Virus record (IMG/VR): IMGVR_UViG_3300045988_163663 | Length of the DNA: 49,064 bases | Source of the DNA: a virus | Reading direction: 5' to 3' (one strand) | In this document: one piece after another, positions 29,201 through 48,332 of the stretch | Numbering within the stretch: position 1 is the stretch's first letter | Layout of the letters: every line of letters starts with the position of its first letter | The notes under the pieces: generated by a model | Database searches by the model: none | What the model was told of the DNA's origin: nothing | The model's input: the letters and a program-made list of their open reading frames with translations, nothing else | Program-made: the position numbers and the translations under genes

Positions 29201-29638
29201 TGTATTAGCTAATGTCTTTTTAAAATTATCTAATATAGCGTTAGTTCTTTTTAAAGGAACTTCAGCATTAATAACAGACTATGCTAATGCAACAAATGCT
29301 TTATCGCCTGTCGGGCCTAGATTCTCTAAATGTGTAGCAAAATCCTAAAGAGTATAACCGCTCTGGCTTAAACTCTTTGAAAATTTTGATAAATCTAAAC
29401 GTCCAGTATTAACATTAGTCGCCTAATCTAAAGCAATTTTTAACTCCTAAACTGCTGCCGAGGCTTCATCTATTTCTTTTTTAGTGGCATTAACATCAAA
29501 AAATTTAATATTTTTTGTTGCTATCTAATTCATTAAAGTATCTAATGAACTTTGTAAATCACGTAATTGCTATTTAGCTTGGCCTGTATCAGCCGTAAAT
29601 CGCATATTAACATTATAATTAGCACTGTTATTAGCCAT
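20207..29638 (-). CDS. Tail tape measure protein, ~3143 aa
   Basis: AAAGGAG ribosome-binding site then ATG at 29638. Six track fragments spanning 9.4 kb (28031-28390, 25484-25735, 24494-24676, 23789-24298, 22946-23296, 20978-21334) all fall in the same frame. It is Ala/Gln/Leu-rich and coiled-coil, with a Gly-rich segment GGGGGGGSESKS and a transmembrane-like stretch GKSVLIFAKYAAAIAAVVAVVWLLV. TGA stop at 20207-20209. Confidence 0.6.
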
Positions 29639-29685
29639 AAAATAGCTCCTTTCTCTCATTATAAATTTCTATATACAAAGAAAAA

Positions 29686-29712
29686 GCGAGAGGAACAAAG
29701 CCTCTCGCCTTT
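29686..29712 (-). terminator. Rho-independent terminator/attenuator between the chaperone-like gene and the tape measure
   Basis: Hairpin gcgagagg-aacaaag-cctctcgc. A U-rich tract follows on the minus strand (ttttctttg), and a T-rich tract follows on the plus strand as well. Confidence 0.55.
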
Positions 29713-29750
29713 TAATATTCCTATCTAAATTAGAAATCAATTATGATATT

Positions 29751-30164
29751 TTAACCCATCTTGGTTAAAATATCTTTTACTAAAGATAGACTTTCAGGAT
29801 TAGAAATCTTATCTTGTAATTCATTAACATCTAAATTTAAATTAGAATAATTCTGATTCATAGTATCCATAATCCCATAAACACTATTATGATATTTATA
29901 ATATCCATTAAGCATTTCATAAGTATAGACTTCTAAATCATCAGTTTGATTACAATTTACTTGTTTCTTTAACTCTTTTATAAACCTTGAACCAACAAGT
30001 AAATCATAAAGTTTATACAAATCTTCTTTCTGTTTATCAGTAAAAGATAAATTTGTATAATTAAATACTATTGCTAAATCCATATACATATGGAAAGCAA
30101 ATTCATTCAAAAATTCATTATTAAAATCAATGACTTGTTGAATGACCGACTAAGCAATATCCAT
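29751..30164 (-). CDS. Tail assembly chaperone-like protein (by position upstream of the tape measure); start is ATG 30164 or GTG 30278
   Basis: Track ORF 29751-30110 extends upstream through TAG 30150. A GGAAGTGAG ribosome-binding site sits before GTG 30278. TAA stop at 29751. Function is assigned by synteny only. Confidence 0.4.
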
Positions 30165-30331
30165 TCTCTCTTTTATTGGAAGATACTATTTTACTTCAAT
30201 AACTTGATCATTATATTGCCAATTTCTTATTTCTGAATTTTTCTGGAGAGAGAGTTTTGTAAAAGCTATTTTCGCCACATTCTCACTTCCTTTAACTTTA
30301 TATTTTAAAAATTTTGTCAGAAACAAATTTT

Positions 30332-31714
30332 TTAATTTTTATCCTTTATAAATATATTATAACAAAAAAAATTTCCAAAGTCAAAAAATTTTTTTTACTA
30401 ATCTTCAAAAATTTTACTGAAATTCATACTAATAGGACCATATAGAGCTTGCTCCATAGACATTCTTCTTTCATCATTTTCTAAAATACTTCTAGAACCT
30501 TGTTTTTTATTAAAATATAAATTCATTTCTATATCTTCTGCTAATTTAGCTGTTGATAAAACTTTTAAAAAACCTTGCTTTTTAGGATTATTAATAACTA
30601 AAAATTTAGTACGACCAATATCATTAATAAAATTAGCCATTACACTCTAATAAGCATACTTAGTATTTCCAACTTGTTGTTTAGCACCAGTCAATTCATA
30701 AATAGCTCTAATTCTAAAAAACATTTTAGGCACATCATTATGTTCTGCTAATTTAGAATGCTTTGCCATACAATTTAACATACGAGCATATCTATATAAT
30801 TTATAACCTGTATCTCCATCAGCCACAGTTAAAAAAACACGATAAGGATTAGTTTTACCTAAACCTATAAAATCTGTTGATAAATAATTTTTATCGCTGA
30901 ATGTAGCCATCGATAAGGCATTAACTACTTGATTTAACAGTGTCGCTGTAGCAGTAATTGAAATACTATAATTTAAACCAGTGTTATCAGCTTTTATCTA
31001 TTTGCCCTAAATAGCTCCAACTCGACCATTTTTTTTAACTTGAGTATAAATAGTAGTAGCTTCTAAATTATTTTTTCGACGTTCAGTTGTAGTATTACCT
31101 GAATCTTTTTTTTCCTATCCAACTTTATAAATAAACCGAGACAAATTATTTATTGCAGTTTTTGTAGTGCTATCTATAAACTCTCCACCAATATTAGTAA
31201 TTAAATTTTTCATATTAATATTATCAACTAATTGGCCAGACCGATGAGTCTACGGTAAAGGACCATAAGGCATTTCCATATTCTAAAAAGTATAGTCAAT
31301 AGTAGTAATAAATTCATTCATAAAATTCTCTAATAAGGCACCACGTTCATAGCTATTTGCTCCTTTTTTAATTAAACCTCCTCCAATAAATAATCCAGGA
31401 TTTACCGTATATAACTAATTAAGTAATTCAGCTAAAGCCTAATCCTAAACAATCTCTATTAAAGATTCAGCAGAAAAAGACATTTTTTTAGTATAATTAT
31501 TTTGAATCTACTTTATTCCATTTAAAACTTTTTCTAATAATTTAGCATCCTAAACTTCTTTATTAGCAATTGTATCATTTGGTCGAGCAGCAGCTCTATA
31601 TACTTCTAAAAGACTACTTAAATAAGTAGGAGTATTTACTTCATTTTTATAAGAAACTCCTTTTTGTTTATAATAAACTAACTAATTTTTCTAGGCATTT
31701 GTTAATTTTGCCAT
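30332..31714 (-). CDS. Tail structural protein, ~440 aa (ends at TAG 30398 or, if read through, at TAA 30332)
   Basis: AAAAAGGAGAT ribosome-binding site then ATG at 31714. Track ORFs 30647-30910 and 30398-30640 are in one frame, joined by TAG 30647. Many in-frame TAGs lie upstream. The 22-codon extension beyond TAG 30398 is low-complexity, so termination may occur at that TAG. Confidence 0.45.
30356..30384 (-). promoter_or_regulatory. Consensus sigma-A-type promoter driving the tail operon
   Basis: Minus strand reads TTGACT-17 bp-TATAAT with a TGn extended -10 (TTGACTTTGGAAATTTTTTTTGTTATAAT). It is 27/29 identical to the promoter at 46781-46809. Confidence 0.6.
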
Positions 31715-31924
31715 ATATTATATCTCCTTTTTCACATAATAAAAAAAAGGAGAGGGATTAACCCTCTCCTTTAATAATCTTATCAATAAGTTCATCCTCT
31801 GTAAGAGGAATTTTATTCTCTTTTTCTTGAGAATTTTTATTTTCTTTTTTTGATTTTTTAACTATAACTTTTTCTACTTCAGATGCTTTAACAGGTCGTG
31901 GAGCATTAGAGCTAATAATCATAA

Positions 31925-33016
31925 TTAAATATCAAAATAGCTGTCATGCATCGGATCATGGATAGTTTGAGTACGATAGACACTATCATTATCAATATCT
32001 TCAATGACCTGAACAGCAGCCAATACTTTCTTAGTAGGATTGAAACGAGTAGTTCCTGGGAAAGCATCAAGTGTGAAAGTGAAAGTTGCAGGATCGCCAG
32101 TAGCAGCCATACTGAAAGTAAAGTTAGACTGAATCTTGCAGTTAGGAATTATAAATTCGGCAGGAAGATCAACACCATCCTGAGTACGGAATAAGGTAGA
32201 AGCTTCAAGATAGAAGTTGCCACCAAAAGATTCAGCGGTAATTTCAATTTGACGAGCATTGCTAGCCTTCTCAATATAATAATCAAGAAGAACAACAGAA
32301 TCTTTAAATAATTCTAATTTATGTACTGCATTAGCTTCAGCTTCATCAACAATCTTATAAGCAGAAGTAATTTCCTTAATCTAAAGACCATAATAAATCT
32401 AAGTACCAGCTTTAGCCTTAGTATCAGCTTCTGCATCAGTACAAGTCTTATACTTCATTTCAGTTTCATCAAAATAGAACTTTTGAGGTTTCGCAACTGC
32501 CCCCGCCTCAGTTTGACGAATAACTGTAGGAAGATAAGGCTCAGTTACTGGTTCATCATTGTCAACACGCATAGCATAAATATAATATTCACCTTTATGA
32601 GCACCCGTGGTAGTATCAATTTGTTCATATGGTAAATTTTTAATAAAAATTTGTACACTATCCTTATCTTCAGAGAGAGCCACAGCAGTAGTCTTTTCAG
32701 TTACATGTTGCTTAATTGTATTCTGTTTAGAAGCATCAATAAGGCCAGCTCCAGCAAGAATCATGAAACCTTCTGCAGAAATAAGAGCATCTTCCATAGT
32801 GAATGTTAAAGTACGGTCACCGTCCCAAGCTACTAAACGAGCATTGCCGCGTCCGCCTTGTGCATATACGGTCGTAGAAGCACCTTCAAGGCTAGAAGTT
32901 TTTAATGTATCGAAATAAAGAACTGGTTCGTTCGCATAGAAAACTTTATTACCAACCTTCATAGGAGCACGAGCTTTTAATACGACATCGCATATTTCAC
33001 GAACACCAAATTTCAT
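31925..33016 (-). CDS. Major tail protein-like, ~363 aa
   Basis: AGGAGG ribosome-binding site then ATG at 33016. Track ORF 32399-33016 continues through TAG 32399 and TAG 32381 into ORF 31925-32110 in the same frame. TAA stop at 31925. The product is beta-rich. Confidence 0.5.
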
Positions 33017-33095
33017 AGGTTATTTCCTCCTTAATAAAATTTAAATTTTATTTATATAACTCGCTACAAAAATTAGTAAAGCGATTTATACAAAG

Positions 33096-33830
33096 TTAAT
33101 GAATGTTTTTCATCCAATTGTCAGGTTTTTTATCTGACTTAGCTCCTGCTAATCTACTCTTTACATCAATATCCCAATTAGTATAAAGAGAAAATCTTTC
33201 TATTAAATCGTATAACTAATACAATGTTAAATTCATACAATCTTCTAACGACATTGAATCTAATCCAATAGTCAATGTAGAAACGTATTGGCTCAAAATG
33301 CTTGAATCGGTAACCCCTTTAAGTTCAGCGACCCTTTGACGCCCTTTCATTAATTTATTAGCTATTTCTTGAGCTTTCTTATTAGCAGGATTATAATTAT
33401 CTTGCCCATTTTTATTAGTATCAAAACAAAAAATTTGTCTTGCTACCGACTAAAATAATTCAAAGTTATCATCATCAATATTAATCTAAATGTCACTCTC
33501 ATTATACTAAATAACAATAGATCTAGGAGTAAATGTAGACTTTGAATTTGGGAATAGTAATGATAGAACCTATTGCGCAGCTTTACGCCGTTCATTATTA
33601 TCTTTCTATAGCATTACCATCATAAATATCTAAAAATTGGTAGTAGTATCCAAATCATTCTTGTCCTGATTTGTTATACTATTTTTATTAATACAAAGAC
33701 ACTAAGCACCAGTAAAAAATTCTTTTTCGCCAATTAATGCTATTTCCTTTATCTTAGGCTAATGGAGGGTTAATGGAATTTCTGGAACAGGTAAATCTGT
33801 TCCGCACATTAAACTAAGTTTATAATCCAT
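33096..33830 (-). CDS. Tail/neck protein, ~245 aa
   Basis: ATG at 33830 overlaps the upstream stop (TAATG). Several in-frame TAGs. TAA stop at 33096-33098. Confidence 0.4.
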
Positions 33831-34420
33831 TAATTCATCTTAGGCATTTTAAAATAATCCTCGATAAACATTTGTTCATCAGCAGGATTTGGCATATATT
33901 TTTTATCTTCTCCTCCGTGTATTGTATCATATAATAAACAAAGTCCAGCAAATTCATCAGTTAATATAATTTGCTATGCTCCGATGAAATTAAGTTGCCC
34001 AATTCCAGTTAAATGTTTTTTATCTAACATACTATCAAGTTCGGCAGCGATTCTATAAGGTCTTAACTAAAATGAATCAGCTAATTGCCACTAATCATAA
34101 TGACAAACAATATCAAATTCAATAGTATTATCCCTAAATTCAGGATTGTCTCCATTAGGAGCAAAGTTATCAAAACTAATAACAATATAATTTAAAACAT
34201 CTTTATCTATATATAATTTTGGTAAATTCCTTATATTTTTACCGAACATTTTTACAAAATTCTAATCACTTACTTCTGGCAATCTTAATGCATCAGGAGT
34301 AGTATAATAAAGTAATTTACGCAAACGTTGATTCGCGGCCATACGATCAACTATGATTCTCATATCTTTTTCTTGGGCTAAAAATGCTGACTCTGGATTT
34401 TTTACATTATCAATTTTCAT
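33830..34420 (-). CDS. Tail/neck protein, ~196 aa
   Basis: AAGGAG ribosome-binding site then ATG at 34420. Four in-frame TAGs. TAA stop at 33830-33832. Confidence 0.4.
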
Positions 34421-34441
34421 TCTCCATTTTCTCCTTCATCT

Positions 34442-35437
34442 TTAAAATAAAGATTCAACTACAATGGTTTTACATTCTGGCCCATAGAATAAATCAAACT
34501 ACCCACAGTAGGTAGTTTCCCATCGTAATTTTAAAGTATTTGTTTCTTCATTTACTTTAACTGTTAATGGTAATTTTTTATCCCAAGTCCATTTACCAGA
34601 TTTAATTCCATCATATTTATATTCATATACTACTTTTGGTTTAATAAAAGTATCACCAATAATGCCATTTTCTTTACCTGAATTAGGATCTTGAACCGGC
34701 TATATTAAACCGTTGACAATGCCATTATCAATATCATCAGCAGTTTCATTAGAATAATACTCGACAGCATTAATTTCAATTATTCCAGGAGTAGAATACA
34801 AATCAGTAGCTTCAATACGCCAACATGTTTTATTAGGGTCATTCTACAAATAAAATTTATTATAACGCTAACATAATTTTACATTATCATCATTATAAGG
34901 TAATAATATATTTAAAGAATGATTAGGTGTATCTATACTAATTTCATGCTTTTGGATATAATTAATTTTAGTTTCAACAGGACCACGCAAAGCAACATAA
35001 GTTTTATGATAATTTTTATTTTCATCTTCCCAGGCAATTTCATAAGAACAACGTCTTATATTACCACGAAAATAAGCTAATTCAGTTAAATCTTGTAAAT
35101 AAATTAACCAATAAGTATTTGTACCTAACCACTAAAAAATATCCCCAGTTTTAAAATTACTTTCAAAACCAATTGAAATAATTTTTTCATCATAATCCTA
35201 TTTTATTTTGTCAGGATTAATTAATGCACGACGTTCAATAGTATCTTTGTCATCATATAATTTTTTTACCAAGGCAGCTTGATAAGAATAAAGTAAAGCT
35301 CTACTTAATGTTTTACGTTTATCTCTTATCATTCGTTCTTGTTGTCCTGTTACTCCATCGCCATATAAATATCTTGTAAGCATATTGGCTTTTGGAATAC
35401 GGTTATACATTACATCTAAATATTCATTTTTATTCAA
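34442..35437 (-). CDS. Tail/neck structural protein, ~331 aa
   Basis: AAGGGGG ribosome-binding site with a TTG start at 35437. Track ORF 35198-35437 continues through TAG to TAA at 34442-34444. Confidence 0.4.
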
Positions 35438-35725
35438 TGTGAAGCCCCCTTAATAAAGTAATAGCTTCAAACACTGTCTTTCTATAAATAGGAAATTCAA
35501 TTTCAATATTTTTTAGTCCTTCTAATTTACTTAAAAGAATTAAATACTAACTATCATTAAAAATTTCCCCAAGACCAGTTAATTCAATAATTACAGTATT
35601 TAACTAAGATAACCAATCTTCTTCATTTTCACGCATAGGAATTAATTTCCATATCTAATTAGTTAATCTATTAATATTAGTATTAATTAAATCATTATCT
35701 ATATTAAAATTATATTTAGTCATCA
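35430..35725 (-). CDS. Head-tail joining protein, ~98 aa
   Basis: GGGAGG ribosome-binding site with ATG at 35725. Three in-frame TAGs. TAA stop at 35430-35432. Confidence 0.35.
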
Positions 35726-35742
35726 AGGGCGCTTACCTCCCT

Positions 35743-36327
35743 TAGAACAGACCAGTTAGATTTAATATATCCATTATCATCAGTTTTACGACGCTTATAT
35801 AATCTCTGCATATGAAAGGCCTAACGTCTTACTTCTGTTCTCAATGATAACAATTTCTACATATGATTTGCCTATGAAGTAAATTTAAAATCTGTACCAG
35901 AATATTTCATTCTTGTTACTTCAATAGATGCCAATTGACGTTCTACCCAAGCTTCAACCATAATTAAAGCCAAGATATTAATTTCTTCATCATCCAAATC
36001 GGCATTAAAATAGGAGGTATTTTCTTCAGAAAATATCTCCTAAAAAGCATTATCTATATCAATGTTACTGCCAGCTACTTCTTCAGATAAATCTCCGCCT
36101 AATGGTATATCAATATTTCCGCCATCAATTTCCCCTTTTATAAAATCAGGAGCATCTTCATCAACTAAAACATAATCTAATTTTTTACGCGGAAATTCAA
36201 ATCCAGGGATACTATCAACAAGCAATTGACGTAAATCTAAAAATGTATCATGAGGAGTAAGTTCTAAATACATATCATCTGTTACTTTGCCTAAAAAGCG
36301 TTCATAAATCTTATAAAAATATGTCAT
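35743..36327 (-). CDS. Head-tail connector/adaptor-like protein, ~194 aa
   Basis: AAGGAGG ribosome-binding site then ATG at 36327. Track ORF 36040-36327 continues through TAG 36040 and three more TAGs to TAA at 35743. Confidence 0.4.
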
Positions 36328-36349
36328 ATAAAACCCTCCTTATTTATAA

Positions 36350-36916
36350 TTAACCTTCTTTTACAACGTTATAACGAGGAGCAGTTCTACGACCAGGAGG
36401 CGTTGTAGGCTTAGTTTCAGTCTTCACTCTACGTTCAGGAGCTTTTGGAGTAATCTGTTCATCCTCCGCAGCTTCAGCTTCCTTATTAGCTAATGCTCTA
36501 TCAAGGTCAAATCCAGTCTTATCCTTAAGAGCTTTACGCTTATTATAATCACTCATAGGAAGAGATACAGCATAGCTCTTAATCATATCAATAACTCCAA
36601 TAGGAGCAAAATCAAGACAATCAAGGAATTCATCAAGAGTTCCCTCAGTAAGAAGTTTAATAACTCCAGCATCATCTAAATAATATTCAGGTTCTGTATG
36701 AATACCTAATTCTTCTGTAGTTTTAGTATCTACAATTTTTAAGAAATTTTCCATCAAGGTGCGGCCTCCGCTAAGGTAAGCAAGCTTTTCTAATTCTTCA
36801 AAAGGAATTTTTTTAGTTTCACCAGGTGTAAATTCTCTACGGATGCCTTCTTCAGGAATAGTATAAACAACCATTCCAGCACTTCTATTAGTAACTAATA
36901 AAACTTTTTTATTCAT
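36350..36916 (-). CDS. Head-associated protein with an Ala/Glu/Pro-rich C-terminus, 188 aa
   Basis: AAAGGAG ribosome-binding site then ATG at 36916 (internal Met of the track ORF). No in-frame TAG. TAA stop. Confidence 0.45.
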   Translation of the reverse strand: MNKKVLLVTNRSAGMVVYTIPEEGIRREFTPGETKKIPFEELEKLAYLSGGRTLMENFLKIVDTKTTEELGIHTEPEYYLDDAGVIKLLTEGTLDEFLDCLDFAPIGVIDMIKSYAVSLPMSDYNKRKALKDKTGFDLDRALANKEAEAAEDEQITPKAPERRVKTETKPTTPPGRRTAPRYNVVKEG

Positions 36917-36950
36917 TTTTTTTATTCTCCTTTTACTCATAAAACAAAAT

Positions 36951-36985
36951 AGGGGAGAAGGGGATTTCCCCATTCTCCCCTAAAA
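36951..36985 (-). terminator. Strong rho-independent terminator after the capsid gene
   Basis: Nested GC-rich hairpin aggggagaa-ggggatttcccc-attctcccct, followed on the minus strand by a U-rich run. Confidence 0.7.
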
Positions 36986-37016
36986 ATATTATATATTAAT
37001 TTTTAGTTAATATCAA

Positions 37017-38153
37017 TTACGGCTTATCTTCATTACCGCCATCAATAGTATCATGAGAACCAGTAATTTGACCAGCATAGTCACGGACCTTACCAGTTAC
37101 ACCATCAAGATGCCAGGTCTTCATATCACCAAGAAGTTCAGTATCACAATAGCAGCAGATATTATTAGCTAACATAGCAATAACGCCAACCTTCTTATAA
37201 ACTTGAATTTCACGGCTACGGTCATAATTGGTGTATTCATCAACAATGGTATTGCCTTCCATAGCAACCTTTACAGGCTTACTATCAGCACCAGTAGGAA
37301 TAATCCAAGCATAGCCTGGGTCAATGACTTTCTTTTCATTGGTAGCATCTTCAAAGCCCTGCTCAAGAATAACAACTTTATAGCCCTTATAGGAAGCAAG
37401 ACGGCCAGTATTCCAAAGCTCATTTTTCATAGCTTCAGTATAACGCCAAGCATCCTTCGGAATCATACGAACAGCAAATTCATAAGTGCAATAAATAGTA
37501 GGAGTACCATAAGCAGAAGCAATCATAAGTAACTTATCAAAACCGGGTTCATCAAAACCATTAGCAACTAAACGGTTAGCAGGAGGTAACTGGTTAACAG
37601 AAGCCTTTAAAGCACCGGCAATTTCTTTATAGATAAGTTCATCCATACCTTCCATGACGATCTGGGTAACAACACCAAAATCGACACGGCCATCAAGGAA
37701 TTCCTCAAAGCCAATTTGAGCAGCTCCGCCGATAGCGCTTGTACGGACTTCAAAGCTTTCTTCAGTCTTACCAAGCTTGAATACTTCATAGATACCAGCT
37801 AGGCCGACACGAGTGATGAATTGCTTTGCACGAGTATTGTTGCTGAACTTTCTACGGAAAATAGGCTTGTCACCCTGTTTAAACGTCTTAACTTCAGCAA
37901 ACTGATTATATTGCTCTTCAACTTTCTTAGGAAGAACTTCATCAATAGTTTCCTCAATCATTGAGAAAATAAGGTTCTTATTATCACGATATAAAGAATA
38001 AGTTCCAGCAAGTTCATTTAATTCTCTGCGGAGAGTTTCATTAAGAGCATCATAAGAAAGGCTTTCGCCATTAAAGCTGTAAGCAGTAGGAGTAGAAGGA
38101 TCAGCCTTAGCGACAGTCTTCATTAATTGAACAAGATTTTTTCTATCTAACAT
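37017..38153 (-). CDS. Major capsid protein (HK97-fold type), 378 aa
   Basis: AAAGGAGAG ribosome-binding site then ATG. Intact ORF with no TAG and a TAA stop. It lies downstream of the scaffold and upstream of a strong terminator. The product is globular and beta-rich. Confidence 0.6.
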   Translation of the reverse strand: MLDRKNLVQLMKTVAKADPSTPTAYSFNGESLSYDALNETLRRELNELAGTYSLYRDNKNLIFSMIEETIDEVLPKKVEEQYNQFAEVKTFKQGDKPIFRRKFSNNTRAKQFITRVGLAGIYEVFKLGKTEESFEVRTSAIGGAAQIGFEEFLDGRVDFGVVTQIVMEGMDELIYKEIAGALKASVNQLPPANRLVANGFDEPGFDKLLMIASAYGTPTIYCTYEFAVRMIPKDAWRYTEAMKNELWNTGRLASYKGYKVVILEQGFEDATNEKKVIDPGYAWIIPTGADSKPVKVAMEGNTIVDEYTNYDRSREIQVYKKVGVIAMLANNICCYCDTELLGDMKTWHLDGVTGKVRDYAGQITGSHDTIDGGNEDKP

Positions 38154-38170
38154 TTTTCTTCTCTCCTTTC

Positions 38171-38947
38171 TTACGCGATTCGCATAATCTTAACGCCCTT
38201 CTGATGATCAGGCATTTCATAAACCTTGACAACCTACCACTGGATAGAACCATCACCGGTCTTAGAAAGCATACCGTCAGCAGCACGAGGACTTAAAATA
38301 TCACCAACTACAAGAGTAGCTTCGGCAATAGTATTAGTCGTAAAAATATCACCAACATTGGTCTTGAAAACACGAGGAACCATATTAGTGCCAGCAGGCA
38401 TTCTACGGGCCTCATAAGGACCATCAAAATGTAAAGGATCTTCTTCATAGAAGAGTTCACGAATATCAGGACCAGCAGTAACATCATCATATTCATAAGT
38501 ATGTTGTACACCCTGACTATCTGTAATAGTCATAGAAGTATTACCTTCGGCATCCTTACCATTTAAATAGCGAGCCTGACGTGTACCAATTTCCTGCTTG
38601 CCATCATAGGGGCTGTAATAACGAGCTTGATAATCATCTTTGCGCATAGCAAATTCGCAATCAGCTTGTTCCTCACGATAAAGTTTAATTTCATTATAAA
38701 CTAACATCCATTCGCCCTTGCCAGTGAAATCAACTTCACCAAGCTCACCAGCAGCATAGTCATACTTAACAAACTGGCCATTTTCAAGAAGCTGGATATT
38801 TCTGTTAGCAGGTAATTGAGCATAAATCTGACCAGTGCGTTGAGCACTTAAATGATTAGGCTCAACCTGACCATAGCCATATTCAACGTAGCCGCCCTTA
38901 ACAGCAGATACGCCGCTTAGGTCTTTAAGCATATCTTTTAAAAGCAT
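38171..38947 (-). CDS. Head protein (decoration or second capsid component?), 237 aa plus a possible 19-aa read-through extension
   Basis: AAGGAGG ribosome-binding site and ATG at 38947. The ORF ends at TAG 38234. If that TAG is read, it continues to TAA at 38171. Confidence 0.4.
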
Positions 38948-38971
38948 TAGGTTTTCCTCCTTAAAAATTTA

Positions 38972-40537
38972 TTATTCCATAGTTTTCGCAACATCCTATA
39001 CTGCCTTAATCCAAGCAGGAATACTATCGTCATTTACATCATTATTAATATTATATGTAAGTGGGTCATTTTCTTTCTTTTCATTAGTATCGAAATTGAC
39101 CTTATTGCGAACACAGATAATAGAAAGCTTTGCTTCAATATCATCTAATGAATAAGTATCAATATTAGCAACAACATCTTTCTTATCATCATCAGATAAC
39201 ATATAGAAACTATTAATCATTTCTTGTTTCTTTTCTCTTTCAGCCTCAGTCTTAAACTGAGTTAAAGAAGCAAGTTCTTGTTCGAGTTGTGTTTGCTTTT
39301 CAACTAATTCATTATATTTAGTTTCAAGCGCGGTATACTCGTCTTTTAATAAACCATATTCAACTACATCTTCCAAAGAGTACTTAGCTTTCTTTTTCTT
39401 TTTTTTCTCTTCATCATCCTCAGTTGGTTCTTCTTCTTCATCAGAAGTATCAGTTGGTTTATTTTCGGGAGTGTCCTTCTTTTCATCATCTTTTGGCTGA
39501 TCTTTAGAAGGATCTTCCTTATTATTATCATTATTCTCTTTATTGTCTTTATCTTTTTCGTCCTTTTTTTTCTTTGCAAATTCTGCAACTTTTTCAGGAT
39601 CGAATTGAGGATTATCAGAAACAGAATAATCAGTTAATTCAGAAACTTCACCAGGAGTGAAAGTATCATTCTCCATAGAAAAATCTAAACGAACGAACTT
39701 ATCATCTTCCTTGACAATAGCAAATAAATTACCATTGTCTTCGCAAACTTCTTCAATCATTGCATTACCTGCTCCGAAACCCTTAATGTAAGAATAAAGA
39801 GAAGTCCAAATGGAATCACCAATCTCCACACTATATCTTGTGAACACTTTTGTTCCTCCTTTACCTTCTAATAATTCTTTTAAATCTTTCATCATAGAGA
39901 ATAATTGCTCATTAAATTTATCACTAAATGAGAAATGCATCGTAGGTGCAGTAATATTAGCTCCTTCGAAGCAAGGTTCACAATCTTCTCCAAGAATACA
40001 AAGTTTCTTAATTATTGCTTCATTTATAATAAAAAATTCGGGCATTCCATTCTTATCTTTCGACCAATACGCATTAATTTTTTCATCATCTAATTCCATA
40101 GATTGATTATTACCTTTTTCAATAATACGTTTACTTTCTGGATAGATATCTGTCCAGATATAGCCTTCAGTCATTAAATATTCATGCTCGTTTTTTCCAT
40201 CATCTAAAAATTTCTAAAACCATACTTTAGCTCCCAAGTCTACAAAACCATAAGGAACAGTAGTATCTTTAATATCAAATTTACCATTAGAAATATCAAT
40301 AACACGATTATGTTCTTCATAATCTCCATTGGCTTCATTAAAATAACCAACGATAGGACTACCTGGTAAACTTTGCGCTAAATCTTTAGCAACTTCTTTT
40401 GTTATAACACTTCTATTGCGATTTGGTTTATCACCAACATAACAAACTTTAATCTAACATTTAGAAATTAAAGGATTGATTTTAGTGATATTAATAAACT
40501 CAACAGGAGTATCTAACTTAACACTTGTATGTCTCAC
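38972..40537 (-). CDS. Scaffolding protein (acidic coiled coil) with an N-terminal extension, ~520 aa
   Basis: AGGAGG ribosome-binding site and a GTG start at 40537. In-frame TAGs at 40471-40473 and 40214-40216 join the upstream region to track ORF 38996-40174. The C-terminal half is highly acidic and lysine-rich. It ends at TAG 38996 or TAA 38972. Confidence 0.5.
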
Positions 40538-40550
40538 TATAAATCCTCCT

Positions 40551-42241
40551 TATTTACCAGCTGCTTGACGATTAGCGATTGTTTTTTCACTTTTTTCATC
40601 ATTAGCTTTTTCTGGTCGGCCACTCTCTTTTGTTTCTGTTTTTACTGTAGTAGTAGTATTTCCACTTGTTTTATTTTGAGAAGTGTTAGAACTATTCTAA
40701 TCTTTTTTACCCAAAATATCTTCACCATTTAATGTAGAACTCATAAGAGGCGGTATCATAACTTCGCTTAAATGTAGAACTTCATTTTCAAAATGAGCCG
40801 TATTAAGAATAAAACTCTATGATTGTCCAAGAGCAATCTAAGGTAACATTTTAGAGAAACCAATCTGAGTTTGTTCTTTATACATTTTAGATAAATCTTT
40901 ATAATTATATTGTGTAGTTTCTAACATATAGAACTTATAATTATATTTTTTCTAAACATTCAGGACTGATAATATTCTATCAAAAAATATGTTGAATTGC
41001 AAAATTAAATTGCGCATAGTAGATTCATCATCTAAAATAGATTTTTCCAACGCAATATTGCCGTCTGTATTAAACAAATTGCGCGAAACGCCAAATGCAT
41101 TATATACAGTTCGTTCAACACGCTCTAATTCATCTGTGGTAGCAGAAGTATTTTTATCAGAAGTATCAATAGCATCTACATCTGCAAAAGTAGTTAATAC
41201 ATCAACACCTACAGCTCTACGCAACATTTCAACAGCATTATTATGAATATCACGAGCTTCATCAATATCAAAAATCAAATCACCATTTTTATCAAGTGGT
41301 AATTTCTAAACTAAAATCTTTAATAATTTTTGCATCTGCTTGCGGCGGTCTAAATCTTGTGCGGCATCTAAATCCAAAATTGCTGGAATAGCATTTACAA
41401 ATAATGGAATATCATTAGTACCATTTAAAGCAAACTTAATAGTGCTTTGTGGATCTAACAAATACCAACTACCAGTATTATCACCAGCTACATCAGGTAA
41501 AAGTTTACCAGCCTTATAGAGACGATAACCTATTGTAAATTCATCAGGGAATAATTTTAATACTCTATTACGGTAATTAGTATCCACAAAAGTATCAAAG
41601 TATCTCATATCAAATTCAATAGCAGGTAAATTACCTACTGAATATCTTGAACGACAATACTCAATAGGAAGTTGCTATAAAATTAAGCCAGTACTTGAGG
41701 GAACAATATAGGCATAATAAGCTCCACATTTGATAACTTCAAGAGCCATATCGCCACAAATTTTCTTAATATAAGAATTATCTAAATAATTTAAAATTCG
41801 CCAGAAATCTTTTACTGCTTTTGTTTCATTAATATCTTTAACAGCAGAGCCGTCAGTATTATTAGACTAAATAGCAATAGCCCAATCATAACGATACATA
41901 TTCGCAAAATAATTACATACTCTTTGATAAATACCACTTACTCTAAAAAAGAAGCGTGATATTCTTCGCAATTCTTGAATATCATTACGAATTAAAGCAT
42001 CCATAACCATGGGCTTTGTATAAATACGTTCACGGCTATACTTTTCATTGCGGCGACCGTAAGTGTCCCATCTGAAAGATCCAAGATTTAAGACAGCATC
42101 GTCTAATGTCTTAACACCAACCTTAATCTTCTTATATTCATTTGGGCCAACTGCAGAATACTCACGTACTCCTCCAGTTATGTCAAAACCTTTTTTATGT
42201 ATCTATTCATTTCTGGTTAATTCTTCCTTTTCTAATTCCAT
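40551..42241 (-). CDS. Portal protein, ~563 aa
   Basis: GAAGGTGA ribosome-binding site then ATG at 42241. Track fragments 41306-41608 and 40952-41278 share the frame. About 9 in-frame TAGs. TAA stop at 40551-40553. It sits immediately downstream of the terminase. Confidence 0.55.
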
Positions 42242-42258
42242 ACTTCACCTTCTTTCAA

Positions 42259-42615
42259 TTAATATCCAGCTTTTCGCATTATATAATCATAAGAAATTAA
42301 ATTTTCTTCTGTATAAGGAATTTCTATTAAATGTAAATCATGTAAAGCACAGAATCTACGTTTTTGATTATCATTATATTGCTATTGATATAATCCACGT
42401 TTTCCACCAAATTTATTACTGGCTTCATAATGCTATTTCCCTTGATATTCAATTAAAAAATCAATATTATTATCATCATCAAATATAACAAAATCAAAAC
42501 GTAAAGGACGACCATTATGTGTTTTTAAATCTGGAAATATATATTCCATCTTAAAATTCAGGCCGGCTTCCTCTAAGATTTCTCTAATCTTAATCTCCGC
42601 ACGACTGGCATCCAT
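42259..42615 (-). CDS. PD-(D/E)XK / Vsr-like (DUF559-type) endonuclease; a homing-endonuclease-like gene between terminase and portal, ~118 aa
   Basis: AAAGGAG ribosome-binding site then ATG at 42615. Motif ...GRPLRFDFVIF...IDFLIEYQGKQH..., with TAG read-through at 42433 and 42382. TAA stop at 42259. Confidence 0.45.
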
Positions 42616-42643
42616 ATATTAAGTCTCCTTTCTTATCTACAAA

Positions 42644-42690
42644 TAAATTCCTCTTATTATTCTTTTAAAAATTAATTTAAAAGAATAATA
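42644..42690. other. Long perfect inverted repeat (19-bp stem)
   Basis: ctcttattattcttttaaa-aattaa-tttaaaagaataataagag. It lies between the terminase stop and the endonuclease gene start. Confidence 0.6.
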
Positions 42691-42703
42691 AGAGTTGCCC
42701 GGC

Positions 42704-44455
42704 TTAATTCATAAACATCCAATCAGCAGCCCGGAATTTTTTCTTCTTTTTATCTTCTTCTATTTTTTTTATATAATATAATCCATATTCTAATGCAGAA
42801 AATTTATCTTTTTTAATACTTTTATTAGCTTGTTTTAAAATAATATTTAAACCTTCATTCTCTTCGCGCAAATTCATAATCTCTTCGCGTAATGAGGTAG
42901 TTAAACTAAATGGTCTTAAATAATCAGATCGTGCTTCTGTGGTCATATTCTAGCCCACTTTAGTAGTTAATAGTTTCTATTTAGCAGTTCGTTCATCAAT
43001 TAAAAATTTAATCTTACCAGAATTTAATACTGACTAAGTAATACTATGTGCTTCAGTATTAATTGGTGCATTAGCTTTCATTAAGTATAAAACATCTAAT
43101 TCTGTACTATTGGTTTTATATTTTTTATATTCTTGAACTGCATCATCCTGAGTTCCACCATAAACTCCAAAATCAGGAATTACTTCAGAAGTTTCAGGAT
43201 TAATCTATGGCTTAACCATAAAATCTACTAAACCAACACCAAGTCCATTAGCATCTATTACAATTCTGCGAGCTTTATATTTATAATATAATTTTTTAAG
43301 TTTAATAGCCTAATCTTCAAAATGAGTATCATTCATAGTATAAATATTAACTAAACTTTTAATCGGTTCACCATGCGGTTGCGGCGTTACTTTAAATACG
43401 CAAACAACAGTATCGCATCCTTTACGGCCTACGTCAACACTTAATATATAATAAGATAATTTACTTGAACGGCCAGAAGCTTCATACTCAGGCTAATTCA
43501 GTATTCTATTCCTATTAAATATTTCTGCATTAAAAAAAGCATCTTCAACAGTACCAGACCAAATTGATTCATATTCACGTTCAAAAGAAGCCTCATTATA
43601 AGTTCCTTCATTTTTCTGGTCAGTAATAAATGTTTTCTGCTGTAATCCGACAGCAACAGGAGTTCGCCAAGTTCCGCCTAATACCATACATCTATCAGGC
43701 TATGTAATCATACGAACCAATAAACCAATTAATCTATCATAAGGATAAGTATTTTTATAACCAGCAGTAGTAATATAAATCTATGATTTATTTACCGCTT
43801 CTTCTTCATGAGTTGTACCATCCTTAGCTCTACGAGGAATAGCCATAACTGGTATAATAACTTCGCGCAAAATCTAATCATCAATACCTACACATTCTTC
43901 CATTAGACCACCATGACGACGCTGACCACGAGTGCTTTCTCTCGCAGCTAAATTATCAAGGACAGAACCATTCTTAAATACATAACGTACTTTATCTTTA
44001 CTCTCTTGGCTCTTACCTCGGCCCCAATCAATTTCACGTTTAAAACTTGGTATTAAATCACAAATTTCATTAACTTTATCATGTAGAATACTTGCGCCTT
44101 GTTCCTTACCACCAGAAGTAACAAATAAATGAACACCAGGATAAAGAATACATCTAACCATTAATGCCATAACTGATAAGAATGATTTAGAATAAGCACG
44201 AGGGAAAACTGCATAAACATATTGATAGCGCATTACACATCTTAAAAAAACACGCTAATAGAAGAAAAATTTAAATTCTCCTTCTTTCTATTCTGTACGT
44301 GTTCCTCGTACTAAAAAATCAACAAATAAATCTGGATATTCGCGCCAAAAGGCAGTATATTTACGAATGACTGGCATTACAGCATTAATACGTTCTTCAG
44401 AAAGACCTATCTTTTTTCGACTTGTAGATAGGTCAAGTAAATCTTGTAACGCCAT
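42704..44455 (-). CDS. terL: Terminase large subunit, ~583 aa
   Basis: ATG at 44455 overlaps the upstream stop (TAATG). Track fragments 43874-44233, 43493-43687 and 42704-42946 share one frame and are separated only by TAG. ATPase-type and nuclease-type motifs are present (SFEREYESIW; YYILSVDVGRKG...VIDANGLGVGLVD). TAA stop at 42704. Confidence 0.65.
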
Positions 44456-45669
44456 TAATCTTCCCTATCAGAGAAAGCATCTATATCTAACTCTGTTTCA
44501 TTATCTAAAAATTCACTAAAGTCTTCAATATCTTTATCTTCTAAAGTTTTTTCAATGTCTTCAATAGACATATCAACATCATCAACAATTGTATCTTCGA
44601 CGTTTTCTTTAGCCTATTCATCTTCTTTAGCGTTTTGTTTTAATGCCTAATCAATCATATTGCCAAGATTAGTTTCTCGTTCAATTAAAGTACGAGTGTA
44701 TTTTTGCATATCTTTAATTGTAAAATCTACTTTATCATTTGGAGTATCAATGTAATATCTTTCGATATAGCCTTGTTTCTCACACATTTCTATTAATTCA
44801 CCAACAGAATCAATGAAATCGCCAGACTCTTCTTTATTCTAGGCAGCAGTAAATTTGCCCGATTTCATTAAAGAATCATACATTTTAATCATCTTTTGGG
44901 CGCCGTCTACATCACCTATATCTAATAACTAATTAGATTTTAATGATGTCTTACAGGCAAGTTTTAATGTATCAATATGGCCTGCGGACTAAATATCGTA
45001 AGACTACATCATTTCATTAAATAATTGCTCTAAGCGCACCCATTCATCAGGACTATAACCTTTTCCCCATTTTAAATAAAGATATCGTTTATCTTCGTCT
45101 GTTAGCTCTGCACCTAAATCAGGAACATCAAAATCTAATTTATCTTTAAAATAATCTTCCCCAGAATTCCCAAAATCTAATGGAGGAGGTGCGGGAGGAG
45201 GCGGCTCTTTTAATTCTTCTGATGGCAAAGCAAATGAAGCACGTTGAATAGCTGTAGTAATATCTTGAATGTCATATCCCTATTGCTTCATTGTTTCTTC
45301 TATTTTTTTATTTTGTAAGTCTTGCAAGAATTGACTATCTTTCCATCTATAATCTTTCCATTGATTTAATTTCATTGCAGAGAGATAGCGACCTAATATT
45401 GTCATTCCAGTGACTTTTGTCCTATCCTTCGCAAATTTACCCATTAACTAATTCCACTATTCAGGAATGTAAGGAACATCACATTCTTGCAATATCCATA
45501 GATAAGTATCCGGATTCCAATTGTCTACATGCATTGTTATACATTTTTTACATTTTGGTAATTTACCATCATTAGGATATTTATCTAAATTATTAGATGT
45601 ATAAAACTAAGTTCCATCCATAGTTTTATTACATTTTTCACAGTAATATTGTTTACCTTCGCTGGACAA
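44456..45669 (-). CDS. Terminase small subunit-like protein with an N-terminal C4 zinc ribbon, ~404 aa
   Basis: AAAGGAG ribosome-binding site and a TTG start at 45669. N-terminal CEKC...CKKC motif. It includes track ORF 45004-45228 and a proline-rich linker. About 8 in-frame TAGs. TAA stop at 44456-44458. Confidence 0.4.
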
Positions 45670-45687
45670 TCAATATTTCTCCTTTCT

Positions 45688-46760
45688 TTAGGATTTCATT
45701 TTTTCTTTACGAGAACTATTTCGGCATTTTTTGCATATACTATAAAATCCATCTTTACTTGTTTTATTATAGGAAAAATATTTATTGTGAGCCAATTTAA
45801 TTTGTCCACATCTACTGCATTTTTTATACTTACCTTTTTCTTGAGTTGTATAATACCATTCTAAATATTTATCAACAGCTTTATCAGCAATAAGCTTTGG
45901 TATTTTATTGCGGAATAAACTTGATATATATTCTAAACTGTGGGTAATATTAAATTCTTCTTGTAAAATTTTTTGAATCTCTATATTTTGTAATCCATCA
46001 ATTTTACATTCTACAATACGCATTAACATAGGATAATCAGCTAAGGCTTCATCACAAATATTTTCAAAATCATAAATAAGATACCAAGTATCATCTTCAA
46101 AACGATCCCAACTATCTTCTTTTAATCGAGAATAGTTACATAAGATACAAGAGCAAATTTCAGGATTCATTAATGAAATTCCTTCTGGAATTGGATATCC
46201 ATCATCATCAAACATTTTTACATCTTCATCTAATTTAATTTTATATTTAGATCGTGTAAGCTTTACTGGTACTATTGGTTTTCGATAAGCATTTTTAATA
46301 ACATATTGGTCTTTGCGCATTTCTATTAATGCTTTTTTTATAGTAAAAGCATCTTTACCACTCACTACTTTCATTTTTGCTTCCCAAGTTGTAATAGCGT
46401 CTTTTAATTGTTTTAAGCTAGGAATTTCTTCTAAATCTTTTTTTGTAATTGTAACTTTTGGCTAAAATATCATATTTTTATCACTATTAATTAAATTATA
46501 TATACCATCTTCACCATTCTCTAACTGGGAAACAAGTCCTTCGAAAGAAGTTTCACGTTTATTAACTGTCATTAATCTATTATCAGTTAATATTTTCTTT
46601 TCTTTTTTTTCTTGTTTCTCCATACATAGAATTAGATAATCTGCGAGGATTTCTAAATACTTTTCATTAGGATTTGGATTTTCCTCTAAAATTTTTTTTA
46701 CTAATTCATTTCGTTCTTCAGGAGTTTCAAGAGTATAATCTAATTTTATCAAGATTAATA
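45688..46760 (-). CDS. Regulator-like protein with a C-terminal zinc ribbon, ~357 aa
   Basis: GGAGGT ribosome-binding site and a TTG start at ~46760. Track ORFs 46462-46809 and 45688-46374 are joined in frame through TAG 46462. C-terminal motif KCSRCGQ...CKKC. TAA stop at 45688. Confidence 0.4.
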
Positions 46761-46780
46761 CCTCCAATCCTTCTAAAAAA

Positions 46781-46809
46781 ATTATAACACAAAAAATTTG
46801 CAAAGTCAA
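46781..46809 (-). promoter_or_regulatory. Consensus sigma-A-type promoter driving the packaging/head operon
   Basis: Minus strand reads TTGACTTTGCAAATTTTTTGTGTTATAAT (TTGACT-17 bp-TATAAT, with TGn). Confidence 0.6.
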
Positions 46810-46864
46810 CCATGGCCAAAAATTTTTATGGTATTTAGTAAAAAAATTATGTAAAATGTAAAAT

Positions 46865-46893
46865 TGACAATTATAAAAATTTTTTATATAATA
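46865..46893 (+). promoter_or_regulatory. Consensus promoter, divergent from the one at 46781-46809
   Basis: TTGACA-17 bp-TATAAT on the plus strand, upstream of the 46922 gene. Confidence 0.55.
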
Positions 46894-47550: not shown

Positions 47551-47598
47551 TTCGTGTTAAGATTTTGTTAAGAAAAATTTTGACAAAGAACAAAAAAT

Positions 47599-47873: not shown

Positions 47874-47905
47874 AATGGATATCGAGTAATTAAGGAATAA
47901 AATTA

Positions 47906-48331: not shown

Positions 48332-48332
48332 A

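What the first reader, a model, noticed from the sequence alone, without database searches (positions are those of the whole stretch)
30356..46809. Two near-identical 29-bp consensus promoters head the tail operon and the packaging/head operon
Minus-strand TTGACTTTGGAAATTTTTTTTGTTATAAT (30384-30356) and TTGACTTTGCAAATTTTTTGTGTTATAAT (46809-46781) are 27/29 identical. Both have a perfect -35, a 17-bp spacer, a TG extension and a perfect -10. This identity extends beyond the sigma-A consensus hexamers into the spacer, which suggests a shared phage-specific regulator site or a phage late promoter class. The second lies in a divergent promoter hub with a plus-strand TTGACA-17-TATAAT (46865-46893).
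Basis: seen in the sequence. Interest (0 to 1): 0.55.

Follow-up and report, generated by a model that had tools for sequence, protein, structure and literature searches.

The report
Two near-identical strong phage promoters
Two almost identical promoters drive the virion genes of a roughly 100-kb gut phage that reads TAG as an amino acid; they look like ordinary, very strong host-type (sigma-A) promoters whose shared spacer reflects a family-wide A-run/T-run design plus a recent local copying event, not a special late-gene signal.

Summary
The two 29-mers lie at 30384-30356 and 46809-46781 (minus strand) and are 27/29 identical. None is expected by chance.

They match the Bacillota sigma-A consensus closely: TTGACT, a 17-bp spacer, TG at -15/-14 and TATAAT. 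The -35 is 5/6, not perfect. The window is a TAG-recoded (code 15) siphovirus related to large Bacillota phages.

Both promoter positions are conserved across the family (38 and 31 distinct sequences). What is conserved family-wide is the two hexamers, the spacing, the TG, and an A-run then T-run block at about -23 to -17. That is where the RNA polymerase beta-prime zipper "Z-element" lies. Two plus-strand promoters nearby (46864, 47580) share this block.

The rest of the spacer is alike only in the window's own clade. There the current P1 seems to have replaced an older promoter, whose relic remains in the leader. Elsewhere, P1 and P2 of one genome are no more alike than those of different genomes (p = 0.78).

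P2 is the only strong promoter ahead of about 15 kb of regulator, packaging, head and tail-tube genes. P1 drives a conserved promoter-gene-terminator cassette (a probable tail chaperone) just before the 3143-aa tape measure.

Verdict: real and functional-looking, but an ordinary kind of promoter. A late-specific class or a specific regulator site is not supported.

The parts
46781..46809 (-). P2: TTGACT-17-TATAAT promoter with TG at -15/-14 and an AAATTTTTT spacer block
   Evidence: A promoter of this type lies upstream of the orthologous gene in relatives (31 distinct sequences).
30356..30384 (-). P1: TTGACT-17-TATAAT promoter with TG at -15/-14 and an AAATTTTTTTT spacer block
   Evidence: A single strong promoter sits at this position in relatives (38 distinct sequences).
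30385..30396 (-). A8T4 tract directly upstream of the P1 -35 (UP-element-like). It overlaps the stop codon of the 439-aa gene.
   Evidence: A-rich tracts directly upstream of the -35 are common in relatives.
30279..30355 (-). P1 leader, unusually long (about 70 nt). It contains a degenerate promoter-like relic (...AAAATATAAAG, 30306-30296) at the ancestral promoter position.
   Evidence: leaders are 22-38 nt in distant relatives and 69-77 nt only in the window's clade..
29751..30278 (-). 175-aa gene driven by P1 (GTG start, 2 in-frame TAG). Probable tail assembly chaperone.
   Evidence: It lies directly upstream of the tape measure. phrog_30570, function unknown. Model pLDDT 87. Weak fold hits include annotated tail assembly chaperones.
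29681..29713 (-). Intrinsic terminator (13-bp stem, 6 GC pairs, T-run) closing the P1 cassette
   Evidence: Conserved with unrelated stem sequences in 40 of 42 distinct relatives.
20207..29638 (-). Tape measure gene: 3150 aa from the upstream ATG at 29659 (110 in-frame TAG); about 3143 aa from the SD-backed ATG at 29638 used here
   Evidence: (phrog_34405/4211).
45688..46752 (-). First gene behind P2: 354-aa protein with a sigma-region-4-like HTH domain and a C-terminal CxxC...CxxC zinc ribbon (1 in-frame TAG)
31925..45669 (-). Rest of the P2 unit: phrog_3314 protein, large terminase, HNH endonuclease, portal, capsid-like gene (37017-38153), connector genes and a 363-aa virion protein (tail-tube position). 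Gaps between genes are 12-43 nt except the 88-nt TerL|HNH gap.
31741..31772 (-). Strong intrinsic terminator (11-bp stem, T8) ending the P2 unit after the tube-like gene and a 55-aa ORF
36952..36980 (-). Hairpin plus T-rich tract directly after the capsid-like gene (terminator or attenuator)
46864..46892 (+). P3: divergent 12/12 promoter with an AAAAATTTTTT spacer. It heads a 51-aa basic protein and the plus-strand genes.
   Evidence: Conserved in relatives.
47580..47608 (+). P4: TTGACA-17-TAAAAT promoter with an AAAAAATTTT spacer. It heads an AbrB/MraZ/SpoVT-like gene (47673-47900).

Best explanation
P1 and P2 are strong promoters read by the host's housekeeping RNA polymerase (sigma-A type, Bacillota) without a phage factor. 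The phage is a large siphovirus of about 100 kb or more that uses genetic code 15.

Each promoter stacks every known basal element near its optimum:
- an A/T tract upstream of the -35;
- TTGACT at the -35;
- a 17-bp spacer;
- an A-run then T-run block at about -23 to -17, which I infer acts like the Z-element read by the beta-prime zipper, or as a bend or narrow-groove element;
- TG at -15/-14 (extended -10);
- TATAAT at the -10.

P2 fires a unit of about 15 kb. It starts with an HTH/zinc-ribbon protein and runs through the packaging, head and tail-tube genes to the terminator at 31772-31741. P1 restarts transcription downstream of that terminator. It drives a promoter-gene-terminator cassette for a probable tail assembly chaperone. 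Read-through of the cassette's terminator feeds the tape measure and distal tail genes. Terminators after the capsid-like, tube-like and chaperone-like genes would set stoichiometry (inferred).

The 27/29 identity has two layers. The first is the family-wide design, which fixes about 20 of the 29 positions. The second is a clade-specific event in which the present P1 arose upstream of the ancestral one with a P2-like spacer, by copying or conversion of the core or by convergence.

Shown: the sequences, their conservation, the positions, the terminators and the gene identities. Inferred: which polymerase reads them, their strength, their timing and the role of the A/T block.
For: Real and non-random:
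- Two sites, none expected by chance.
- They are the only minus-strand intergenic sites scoring 11/12 with TG.

Host type:
- The nearest cultured relatives are Bacillota siphoviruses.
- The related phAss-1 group is predicted to infect Clostridia (PMC10607447).
- MAG bins carrying relatives are mostly low-GC Bacillota.

Conservation:
- P2 is present upstream of the orthologous gene in the sampled relatives.
- P1 is present 1.1-1.65 kb downstream of the tube-like gene in relatives down to 51% identity.
- Neighbouring coding sequence diverges freely.

Spacer block:
- A3+T3+ occurs in 22/38 P1 and 26/31 P2 spacers. Shuffles give means of 2.3 and 1.0. The reverse order (T-run then A-run) occurs 1 and 0 times.
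- Positions 13-19 of the 29-mer hold almost no G or C, and TG is at -15/-14.
- Only 6 of 136 coding-region promoter look-alikes have the block.
- The Z-element lies at -24 to -18, works with B. subtilis holoenzyme, and AAATT is cited as Z-like (PMC3173786).

The same design on other genes:
- P3 and P4 in the window.
- AbrB-like and HTH genes in other phage contigs.
- Cultured Enterococcus phage EF1 has a perfect TTGACA-17-TGaTATAAT ahead of its homologue of the P2 gene.

Clade-specific identity:
- The pairing statistics.
- The long leader with a relic promoter.

Operon layout.
Against: - There are no expression or 5'-end data, so the polymerase, the strength and the timing are inferred from sequence alone.
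- The host is not identified, so its sigma-A preferences are assumed from the phylum.
- Consensus host-type promoters ahead of virion genes are unusual for phages with strict early/late programmes. Some extra control is therefore likely: a repressor, antitermination or the code switch.
- Another set of strong promoters in the same region (48195, 48306 and their orthologues) lacks the A/T block. The block is therefore not needed for a good consensus match, and it could mark a regulated subset.
- Several strong conserved terminators inside the block imply that long transcripts need read-through, which this explanation does not account for.
Confidence: 0.62

Rival explanations
1. The A-run/T-run spacer block is the operator of a phage (or host) DNA-binding protein. 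Candidates are the AbrB/SpoVT-like protein at 47673-47900 and the HTH/zinc-ribbon protein behind P2. Binding would switch P1, P2, P3 and P4 together. The promoters would then be host-type but form a jointly regulated set.
For: - The block sits at a fixed place in four promoters and is absent from another conserved promoter set nearby.
- AAAATTTT is self-complementary.
- The phage encodes at least two DNA-binding proteins directly behind such promoters.
Against: - The A-to-T junction drifts by about 3-4 nt, and the run lengths vary among orthologues. That fits a DNA-shape element better than base-specific contacts.
- There is no within-genome co-variation of P1 and P2 outside one clade.
- The block spans the position of a known core-polymerase contact.
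Confidence: 0.17
2. P1 and P2 are loading sites for a phage antiterminator, analogous to lambda Q acting at PR'. The HTH/zinc-ribbon protein encoded behind P2 would engage polymerase at these two promoters and make it resistant to the conserved terminators. Timing would come from antitermination rather than from initiation.
For: - The promoters are constitutive-looking and each is followed by terminators: 42694-42651 (weak), 36980-36952, 31772-31741, 29713-29681 and 16872-16836.
- The P1 cassette terminator is conserved in 40 of 42 relatives.
- Exactly two copies of this promoter variant occur per genome in the clade.
Against: - The Q hit scores no better than many generic helical or HTH hits.
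- No conserved specific site is shared by P1 and P2 across clades.
- Terminators after abundant structural genes are equally well explained as leaky stoichiometry controls.
- No pause element was tested.
Confidence: 0.1
3. The sites are late promoters read by a phage-encoded sigma factor (the phrog_5767 protein).
For: - The PHROG label 'sigma factor'.
- The promoters head virion genes.
Against: - The promoters are the host sigma-A consensus, not a distinct motif.
- The putative sigma gene itself lies behind P2, so it could not start its own expression.
- No sigma region 2 was detected by Pfam, NCBIfam or a PDB profile search.
- The same promoter type heads non-virion genes.
Confidence: 0.06

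Closest known systems
Gram-positive sigma-A promoters with an extended -10 / '-16 region' (TRTG-n-TATAAT), as compiled for Bacillus subtilis and clostridia (own knowledge: Helmann 1995; Voskuil and Chambliss 1998; Graves and Rabinowitz 1986)
   Same: TTGACa, a 17-bp spacer, TG at -15/-14, TATAAT and A-rich DNA upstream of the -35. P2 reads TGTG-T-TATAAT, which matches TRTG.
   Different: A position-specific A-run then T-run block at -23 to -17, conserved across dozens of phage genomes, is to my knowledge not part of those consensus descriptions.
Z-element / beta-prime zipper spacer contact (Yuzenkova et al. 2011, PMC3173786)
   Same: A spacer element at -24 to -18 that aids promoter use by core polymerase. 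It works with B. subtilis holoenzyme, and AAATT and AACAT are given as Z-like sequences. The family's A/T block covers the same positions.
   Different: The published Z-element has only a loose consensus and was defined on T7 A1/A2. No A-run/T-run rule was described, and function was not tested here.
Strong early promoters of lytic phages with homology beyond the hexamers (T5 P25/P26/N25, SPO1 early promoters; own knowledge)
   Same: Near-consensus host-type promoters with A/T-rich flanks and extended similarity among promoters of one phage.
   Different: Those drive early genes. Here two of them head the virion-gene block.
Lambda PR' / Q antitermination
   Same: A constitutive host-type promoter ahead of a long late operon that contains terminators. 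The regulator acts at the promoter.
   Different: There is no demonstrated Q-like protein, binding element or pause signal here. The resemblance is in layout only.
T7 T-phi terminator after the capsid gene (own knowledge)
   Same: Intrinsic terminators placed right after abundant structural genes (capsid-like, tube-like, chaperone-like). These plausibly set protein ratios by partial termination.
   Different: A different polymerase and a different phage family. Terminator efficiency was not measured.

Membership tests
Sigma-70/sigma-A housekeeping promoter | -35 hexamer close to TTGACA | tested here: met
   TTGACT, 5/6, at both sites. TTGAC was a selection criterion for the relatives' sets, so its constancy there is not evidence; position 6 is A or T in 64 of the 69 distinct sequences.
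Sigma-70/sigma-A housekeeping promoter | -10 hexamer close to TATAAT, 17 +/- 1 bp downstream of the -35 | tested here: met
   TATAAT, 6/6, with a 17-bp spacer at both sites.
Sigma-70/sigma-A housekeeping promoter | Placed in non-coding DNA upstream of a gene with a ribosome-binding site, in the right orientation | tested here: met
   P2 is followed by GGAGG and TTG 46752. P1 is followed by AAGGAAGTGA and GTG 30278. The same holds in relatives.
Sigma-70/sigma-A housekeeping promoter | Transcription starts about 7 nt downstream of the -10, dependent on host holoenzyme | not testable with these tools
   Needs 5'-end mapping or in vitro transcription.
Extended -10 (TGn) / Gram-positive -16 region promoter | TG at -15/-14, one base upstream of the -10 hexamer | tested here: met
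   TGTTATAAT at both sites. TG is at this position in 26/38 P1 and 21/31 P2 sequences.
Promoter with a Z-element-like spacer | A conserved, non-random spacer sequence at about -24 to -18 | tested here: met
   The A-run/T-run block lies at -23 to -17. It occurs in 22/38 and 26/31 spacers against shuffle means of 2.3 and 1.0, and in 4.4% of coding-region look-alikes.
Promoter with a Z-element-like spacer | Effect depends on the beta-prime zipper of RNA polymerase | not testable with these tools
   Needs mutant polymerase assays as in PMC3173786.
Phage-specific late promoter class | A motif distinct from the host housekeeping consensus, or lacking a -35 and needing an activator or phage sigma | tested here: not met
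   Both sites score 11/12 to the housekeeping consensus with optimal spacing.
Phage-specific late promoter class | The motif is restricted to late (virion/lysis) transcription units | tested here: not met
   The same design is found at the divergent plus-strand promoters 46864 and 47580. In other phages it lies ahead of AbrB-like and HTH genes.
Shared operator for a sequence-specific regulator | The two sites of one genome stay more alike than sites from different genomes | tested here: not met
   Outside the window's clade the within-genome mean is 9.2/18 and the cross-genome mean is 9.5/18, p = 0.78.
Sigma factor (for the 354-aa protein behind P2) | Sigma region 2 (core binding, -10 recognition) plus region 4 | tested here: inconclusive
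Tail assembly chaperone (for the 175-aa protein behind P1) | Gene lies immediately upstream of the tape measure gene | tested here: met
   The gene is at 29751-30278 and the tape measure starts at 29638. The order is conserved in relatives.
Tail assembly chaperone (for the 175-aa protein behind P1) | Programmed -1 frameshift giving a longer G-T type product | tested here: not met
   Only 91-112 nt (to ATG 29659 or 29638), holding a terminator, separates it from the tape measure, so there is no room for an extension ORF. Not all chaperones use a frameshift, so this lowers the assignment but does not exclude it.
Tail assembly chaperone (for the 175-aa protein behind P1) | Fold or sequence similarity to known chaperones | tested here: inconclusive
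   The significant fold hits are uncharacterised siphovirus proteins. Annotated chaperones appear only at E 0.2-0.8.

The most novel reading that the evidence does not exclude
The two promoters, exactly two per genome in this clade, are loading sites for a phage-encoded factor that modifies RNA polymerase. The factor would be the widespread, uncharacterised HTH/zinc-ribbon protein encoded directly behind P2 (more than 6000 homologues, no Pfam family). It would act at the A-run/T-run spacer and let polymerase read through the conserved intrinsic terminators of the 44-kb virion-gene block. That would be a Q-like antitermination switch in large Bacillota phages. It would work alongside, or in standard-code relatives instead of, the TAG code switch as the late-gene timer.
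Probability: 0.1. Interest if true: 0.7.

Novelty: new member of a known kind. Interest (0 to 1): 0.3.

Why it matters
How stop-codon-recoded gut phages control transcription has hardly been studied. The main survey of recoding does not mention promoters at all.

In this family the heavily recoded virion genes sit behind host-type consensus promoters. Standard-code relatives carry the same promoters. Transcription of these genes may therefore need no phage-specific initiation factor. Timing would then fall to translation (TAG suppression), to terminator read-through or to repression.

The conserved A-run/T-run block also provides a large natural data set, dozens of independent sequences, for the poorly defined spacer 'Z-element'. 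For annotators, the rule TTGACw-N6-(A-run/T-run)-N-TG-N-TATAAT plus hairpin terminators marks out transcription units in these abundant uncultured phages.

Tried and rejected
- Table 11 ORF calling gave fragmented genes and was replaced by TAG = Gln after a code test. TGA-sense gave no longer top ORFs (longest still 406 aa); TAA-sense inflates ORF number (180) without long genes (longest 441 aa, against 3178 for TAG-sense).
- tRNA search: none in the window.
- Nucleotide search of the P1 region against annotated phages found no match.
- Rfam on the whole window at gathering thresholds found nothing.
- A permissive Rfam search plus a fold z-score on the GC-rich non-coding stretch 47900-48620 gave only sub-threshold hits and z = -0.84. 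No structured RNA is claimed.
- PDB sequence and profile searches with the 354-aa protein gave nothing meaningful.
The 81%-identical homologue P0002 was used instead.
- Pfam and NCBIfam gave no family for either promoter-proximal protein. PF27287, listed for distant homologues of the 175-aa protein, is not in the local Pfam copy, so its name is unknown.
- I considered that both promoter-proximal genes might be TAG-free early genes. This was rejected for the P2 gene: it has 0-7 TAG in relatives, and 40 of 50 have at least one. For the P1 gene 31 of 50 relatives are TAG-free, but many of those come from standard-code genomes, so the test is uninformative.
- The promoter-like match at 37016-36988 was considered as a third minus-strand promoter. 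It was rejected because it is followed at once by the hairpin that ends the capsid-like gene's unit.
- MAG bin names were used only as a weak host hint, because several are clearly mis-binned, for example Methanosphaera and Treponema.


Full report
**1. The observation.** The two 29-mers are on the minus strand at 30384-30356 (P1) and 46809-46781 (P2). They are identical at 27 of 29 positions. A search allowing three mismatches finds only these two sites in the 49-kb window, and none in 100 shuffles. Each has TTGACT, a 17-bp spacer, TG at -15/-14 and TATAAT. The consensus scan scores both 11/12, so the -35 is one base short of 'perfect'. They are the only intergenic sites on the coding strand of the large minus-strand gene block that reach 11/12 with a TG. 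The gene behind P2 starts at TTG 46752, not 46760.

**2. What the window is.** Standard-code ORFs are badly fragmented. Reading TAG as sense raises the longest ORF from 406 to 3178 codons, while reading TGA as sense gains nothing. The element therefore uses code 15 (TAG = Gln). One gene has 110 in-frame TAGs, and no tRNA lies in the window.

The gene content is that of a siphovirus:
- large terminase, portal and a capsid-like protein;
- a 363-aa virion protein at the tail-tube position;
- a 3150-aa tape measure;
- large distal tail proteins and a holin.

By terminase, the nearest cultured relatives are 130-170-kb Bacillota phages: Geobacillus E3, Enterococcus EF1/H1/VRE9 and Brevibacillus Sundance. 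The human-gut phage phAss-1 is also related and is filed under a 'code 15 clade'. The phAss-1 paper predicts a Clostridia host and reports tape measures of 3149-3150 aa (PMC10607447). MAG bins that carry relatives are mostly low-GC Bacillota. A sigma-A type promoter consensus is therefore the appropriate yardstick.

**3. Transcription-unit layout.**
- From 46752 down to 31925 the genes are packed, with gaps of 12-43 nt (one of 88 nt between terminase and HNH) and no other strong promoter. P2 is thus the only consensus promoter ahead of about 15 kb.
- This stretch ends at a strong terminator, 31772-31741.
- Its first gene is not a packaging gene. It encodes a 354-aa protein with the PHROG label 'sigma factor'.
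- P1 lies directly after the stop codon of a 439-aa gene. It drives a 175-aa gene (GTG 30278), which is followed by a strong terminator at 29713-29681. The tape measure starts at 29638.
- Hairpins with T-runs also follow the capsid-like gene (36980-36952) and a 1098-aa tail gene (16872-16836).

**4. Conservation.**
- The exact motif occurs in three IMG/VR contigs.
- At least 149 viral loci encode the P2-proximal protein. In the sampled loci a TTGAC(A/T)-17-TATAAT promoter lies just upstream.
- Using the tube-like gene as an anchor, relatives down to 51% protein identity carry one strong promoter 1.1-1.65 kb downstream, ahead of the same 'MAK...' gene.
- Neighbouring coding DNA diverges completely while the promoter persists.
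- The terminator after the 175-aa gene is present in 40 of 42 distinct relatives and is built from unrelated stem sequences.
- P1-gene-terminator is therefore a conserved cassette.

**5. What is conserved in the spacer.** The comparison used 38 distinct P1 and 31 distinct P2 sequences. Positions 13-19 of the 29-mer (about -23 to -17) hold almost only A then T. T and G dominate -15 and -14.

| Measure | P1 | P2 |
|---|---|---|
| Spacers with an A3+T3+ run | 22 of 38 | 26 of 31 |
| Mean in shuffled spacers | 2.3 | 1.0 |
| Maximum in shuffled spacers | 8 | 7 |
| Spacers with the reverse order (T3+A3+) | 1 | 0 |

- In the window, only 6 of 136 promoter look-alikes inside coding DNA have such a run. 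The four intergenic sites that have it are the four best promoters: P1, P2, 46864+ and 47580+.
- A further set of conserved promoters, 1.4-2.4 kb upstream of the P2 gene, has TG but never the block.
- The block coincides with the 'Z-element' at -24 to -18, a spacer contact of the polymerase beta-prime zipper. That element works with B. subtilis holoenzyme, and AAATT has been noted as Z-like (PMC3173786).
- Spacer T-tracts are also known to tune promoter use in B. subtilis, probably through DNA bending (PMC5758882).

**6. Why P1 and P2 are 27/29 identical.** I compared P1 and P2 at the 18 positions not fixed by the hexamers.

| Comparison | Matches out of 18 |
|---|---|
| P1 vs P2, window | 16 |
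| P1 vs P2, same genome, window's clade | 13-16 (mean 14.8) |
| P1 vs P2, same genome, 13 genomes of other clades | 7-12 (mean 9.2) |
| P1 vs P2, different genomes | mean 9.5 |

The permutation test for the other clades gives p = 0.78. So there is no general co-variation, which argues against a sequence-specific site shared by the two promoters.

Only the window's clade has a long P1 leader (69-77 nt, against 22-38 nt elsewhere). That leader keeps a degenerate promoter-like relic at the ancestral position. The present P1 therefore looks like a newer, upstream replacement with a P2-like spacer.

In seven clade contigs of 103-188 kb, a pattern covering all variants occurs exactly twice, at P1 and P2. 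In other phage contigs the same core fronts other genes, including an AbrB-like gene and an HTH gene.

**7. The promoter-proximal proteins.**
- The 354-aa protein belongs to a family of more than 6397 sequences with no Pfam, NCBIfam or source name.
- A model of a close homologue has mean pLDDT 71.6, with a confident helical domain followed by a zinc ribbon.
- Annotated phage records call the homologues 'sigma factor', 'luxR family' or 'response regulator'.
- It is a DNA-binding protein. Whether it is a true sigma factor is not established.
- Enterococcus phage EF1 has a perfect extended -10 consensus promoter ahead of its homologue, without the A/T block.
- The 175-aa protein gives a confident model (pLDDT 87). 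Its significant fold matches are uncharacterised siphovirus proteins, and several annotated tail assembly chaperones appear among the weak hits. With its position before the tape measure, 'probable chaperone' is reasonable.

**8. Recoding and timing.** The P2 gene carries 0-7 TAGs in relatives, so it is not a standard-code early gene. Some relatives have tape measures with no TAG, yet they carry the same promoters. The promoter design is therefore independent of recoding. The main recoding survey does not discuss promoters.

**9. Conclusion.** The finding is real, and the elements are almost certainly functional promoters. They are best read as very strong host-type promoters of a family-wide design. 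One heads the regulator/packaging/head/tube unit. The other heads a chaperone-like cassette before the tape measure. Their near-identity reflects that shared design plus a clade-specific history. A late-specific promoter class or a shared specific operator is not supported. A role for the A/T block in regulation or antitermination cannot be excluded without experiments.

Noticed in passing
whole window (for example 20207-29659): The element reads TAG as sense (code 15). The tape measure has 110 in-frame TAGs, and nearly every gene on both strands has at least one. No suppressor tRNA lies in the window.
   Followed up: yes
37017-38153 and 36350-36973; also 38171-38947 and 31925-33016: The capsid-like gene and its neighbour have no TAG at all, and other presumably abundant structural genes have very few (0.4-0.6 per 100 codons). 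Most virion genes have 1.4-3.7. Highly expressed genes seem to avoid the recoded codon.
   Followed up: partly
loci L092-L171: The phage family mixes TAG-recoded and standard-code members. The first ~1000 codons of the tape measure hold 16-39 TAGs in most genomes (2 in one) and none in about 14 others.
   Followed up: partly
47901-48594: This is a 694-bp non-coding stretch. It holds two tandem 38-nt repeats (47936-48011) and two TG-type promoters without the A/T block (48195, 48306), each preceded by a 37-nt direct repeat. It ends in a GC-rich segment (48330-48590) that is unusual for this genome. There is no Rfam match and the fold z-score is -0.84.
   Followed up: partly
42259-42615: An HNH/homing endonuclease gene is inserted between the large terminase and the portal. 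It is preceded by a 19-bp AT-rich hairpin (42694-42651).
   Followed up: no
36980-36952, 31772-31741, 29713-29681, 16872-16836, 5696-5664: Intrinsic-terminator-like hairpins sit right after the capsid-like, tube-like, chaperone-like and 1098-aa tail genes, and before the last lysis-region genes. Long virion transcripts must therefore read through several terminators.
   Followed up: partly
31922-31755: There is an unannotated 55-aa ORF between the tube-like gene and the terminator. Its stop codon lies inside the terminator stem.
   Followed up: no
30296-30306 (P1 leader): A degenerate -10-like relic (AAAATATAAAG) lies at the place where distant relatives have their P1 -10. This suggests promoter turnover in this clade.
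   Followed up: partly
46922-47077 (+): A 51-aa, very basic protein (MRKPRGILGSMASKAKRR...) is the first gene behind the divergent 12/12 promoter. It has no family match.
   Followed up: no
44455-45669: The second gene of the P2 unit (404 aa, phrog_3314, function unknown) begins with its own CxxC...CxxC zinc ribbon and has an acidic tail. It lies directly before the large terminase and could be the small terminase.
   Followed up: no
homologues P0180-P0239 of the 175-aa protein: Distant homologues carry a precomputed Pfam hit, PF27287. That family is absent from the local Pfam copy, so its name could not be read.
   Followed up: partly
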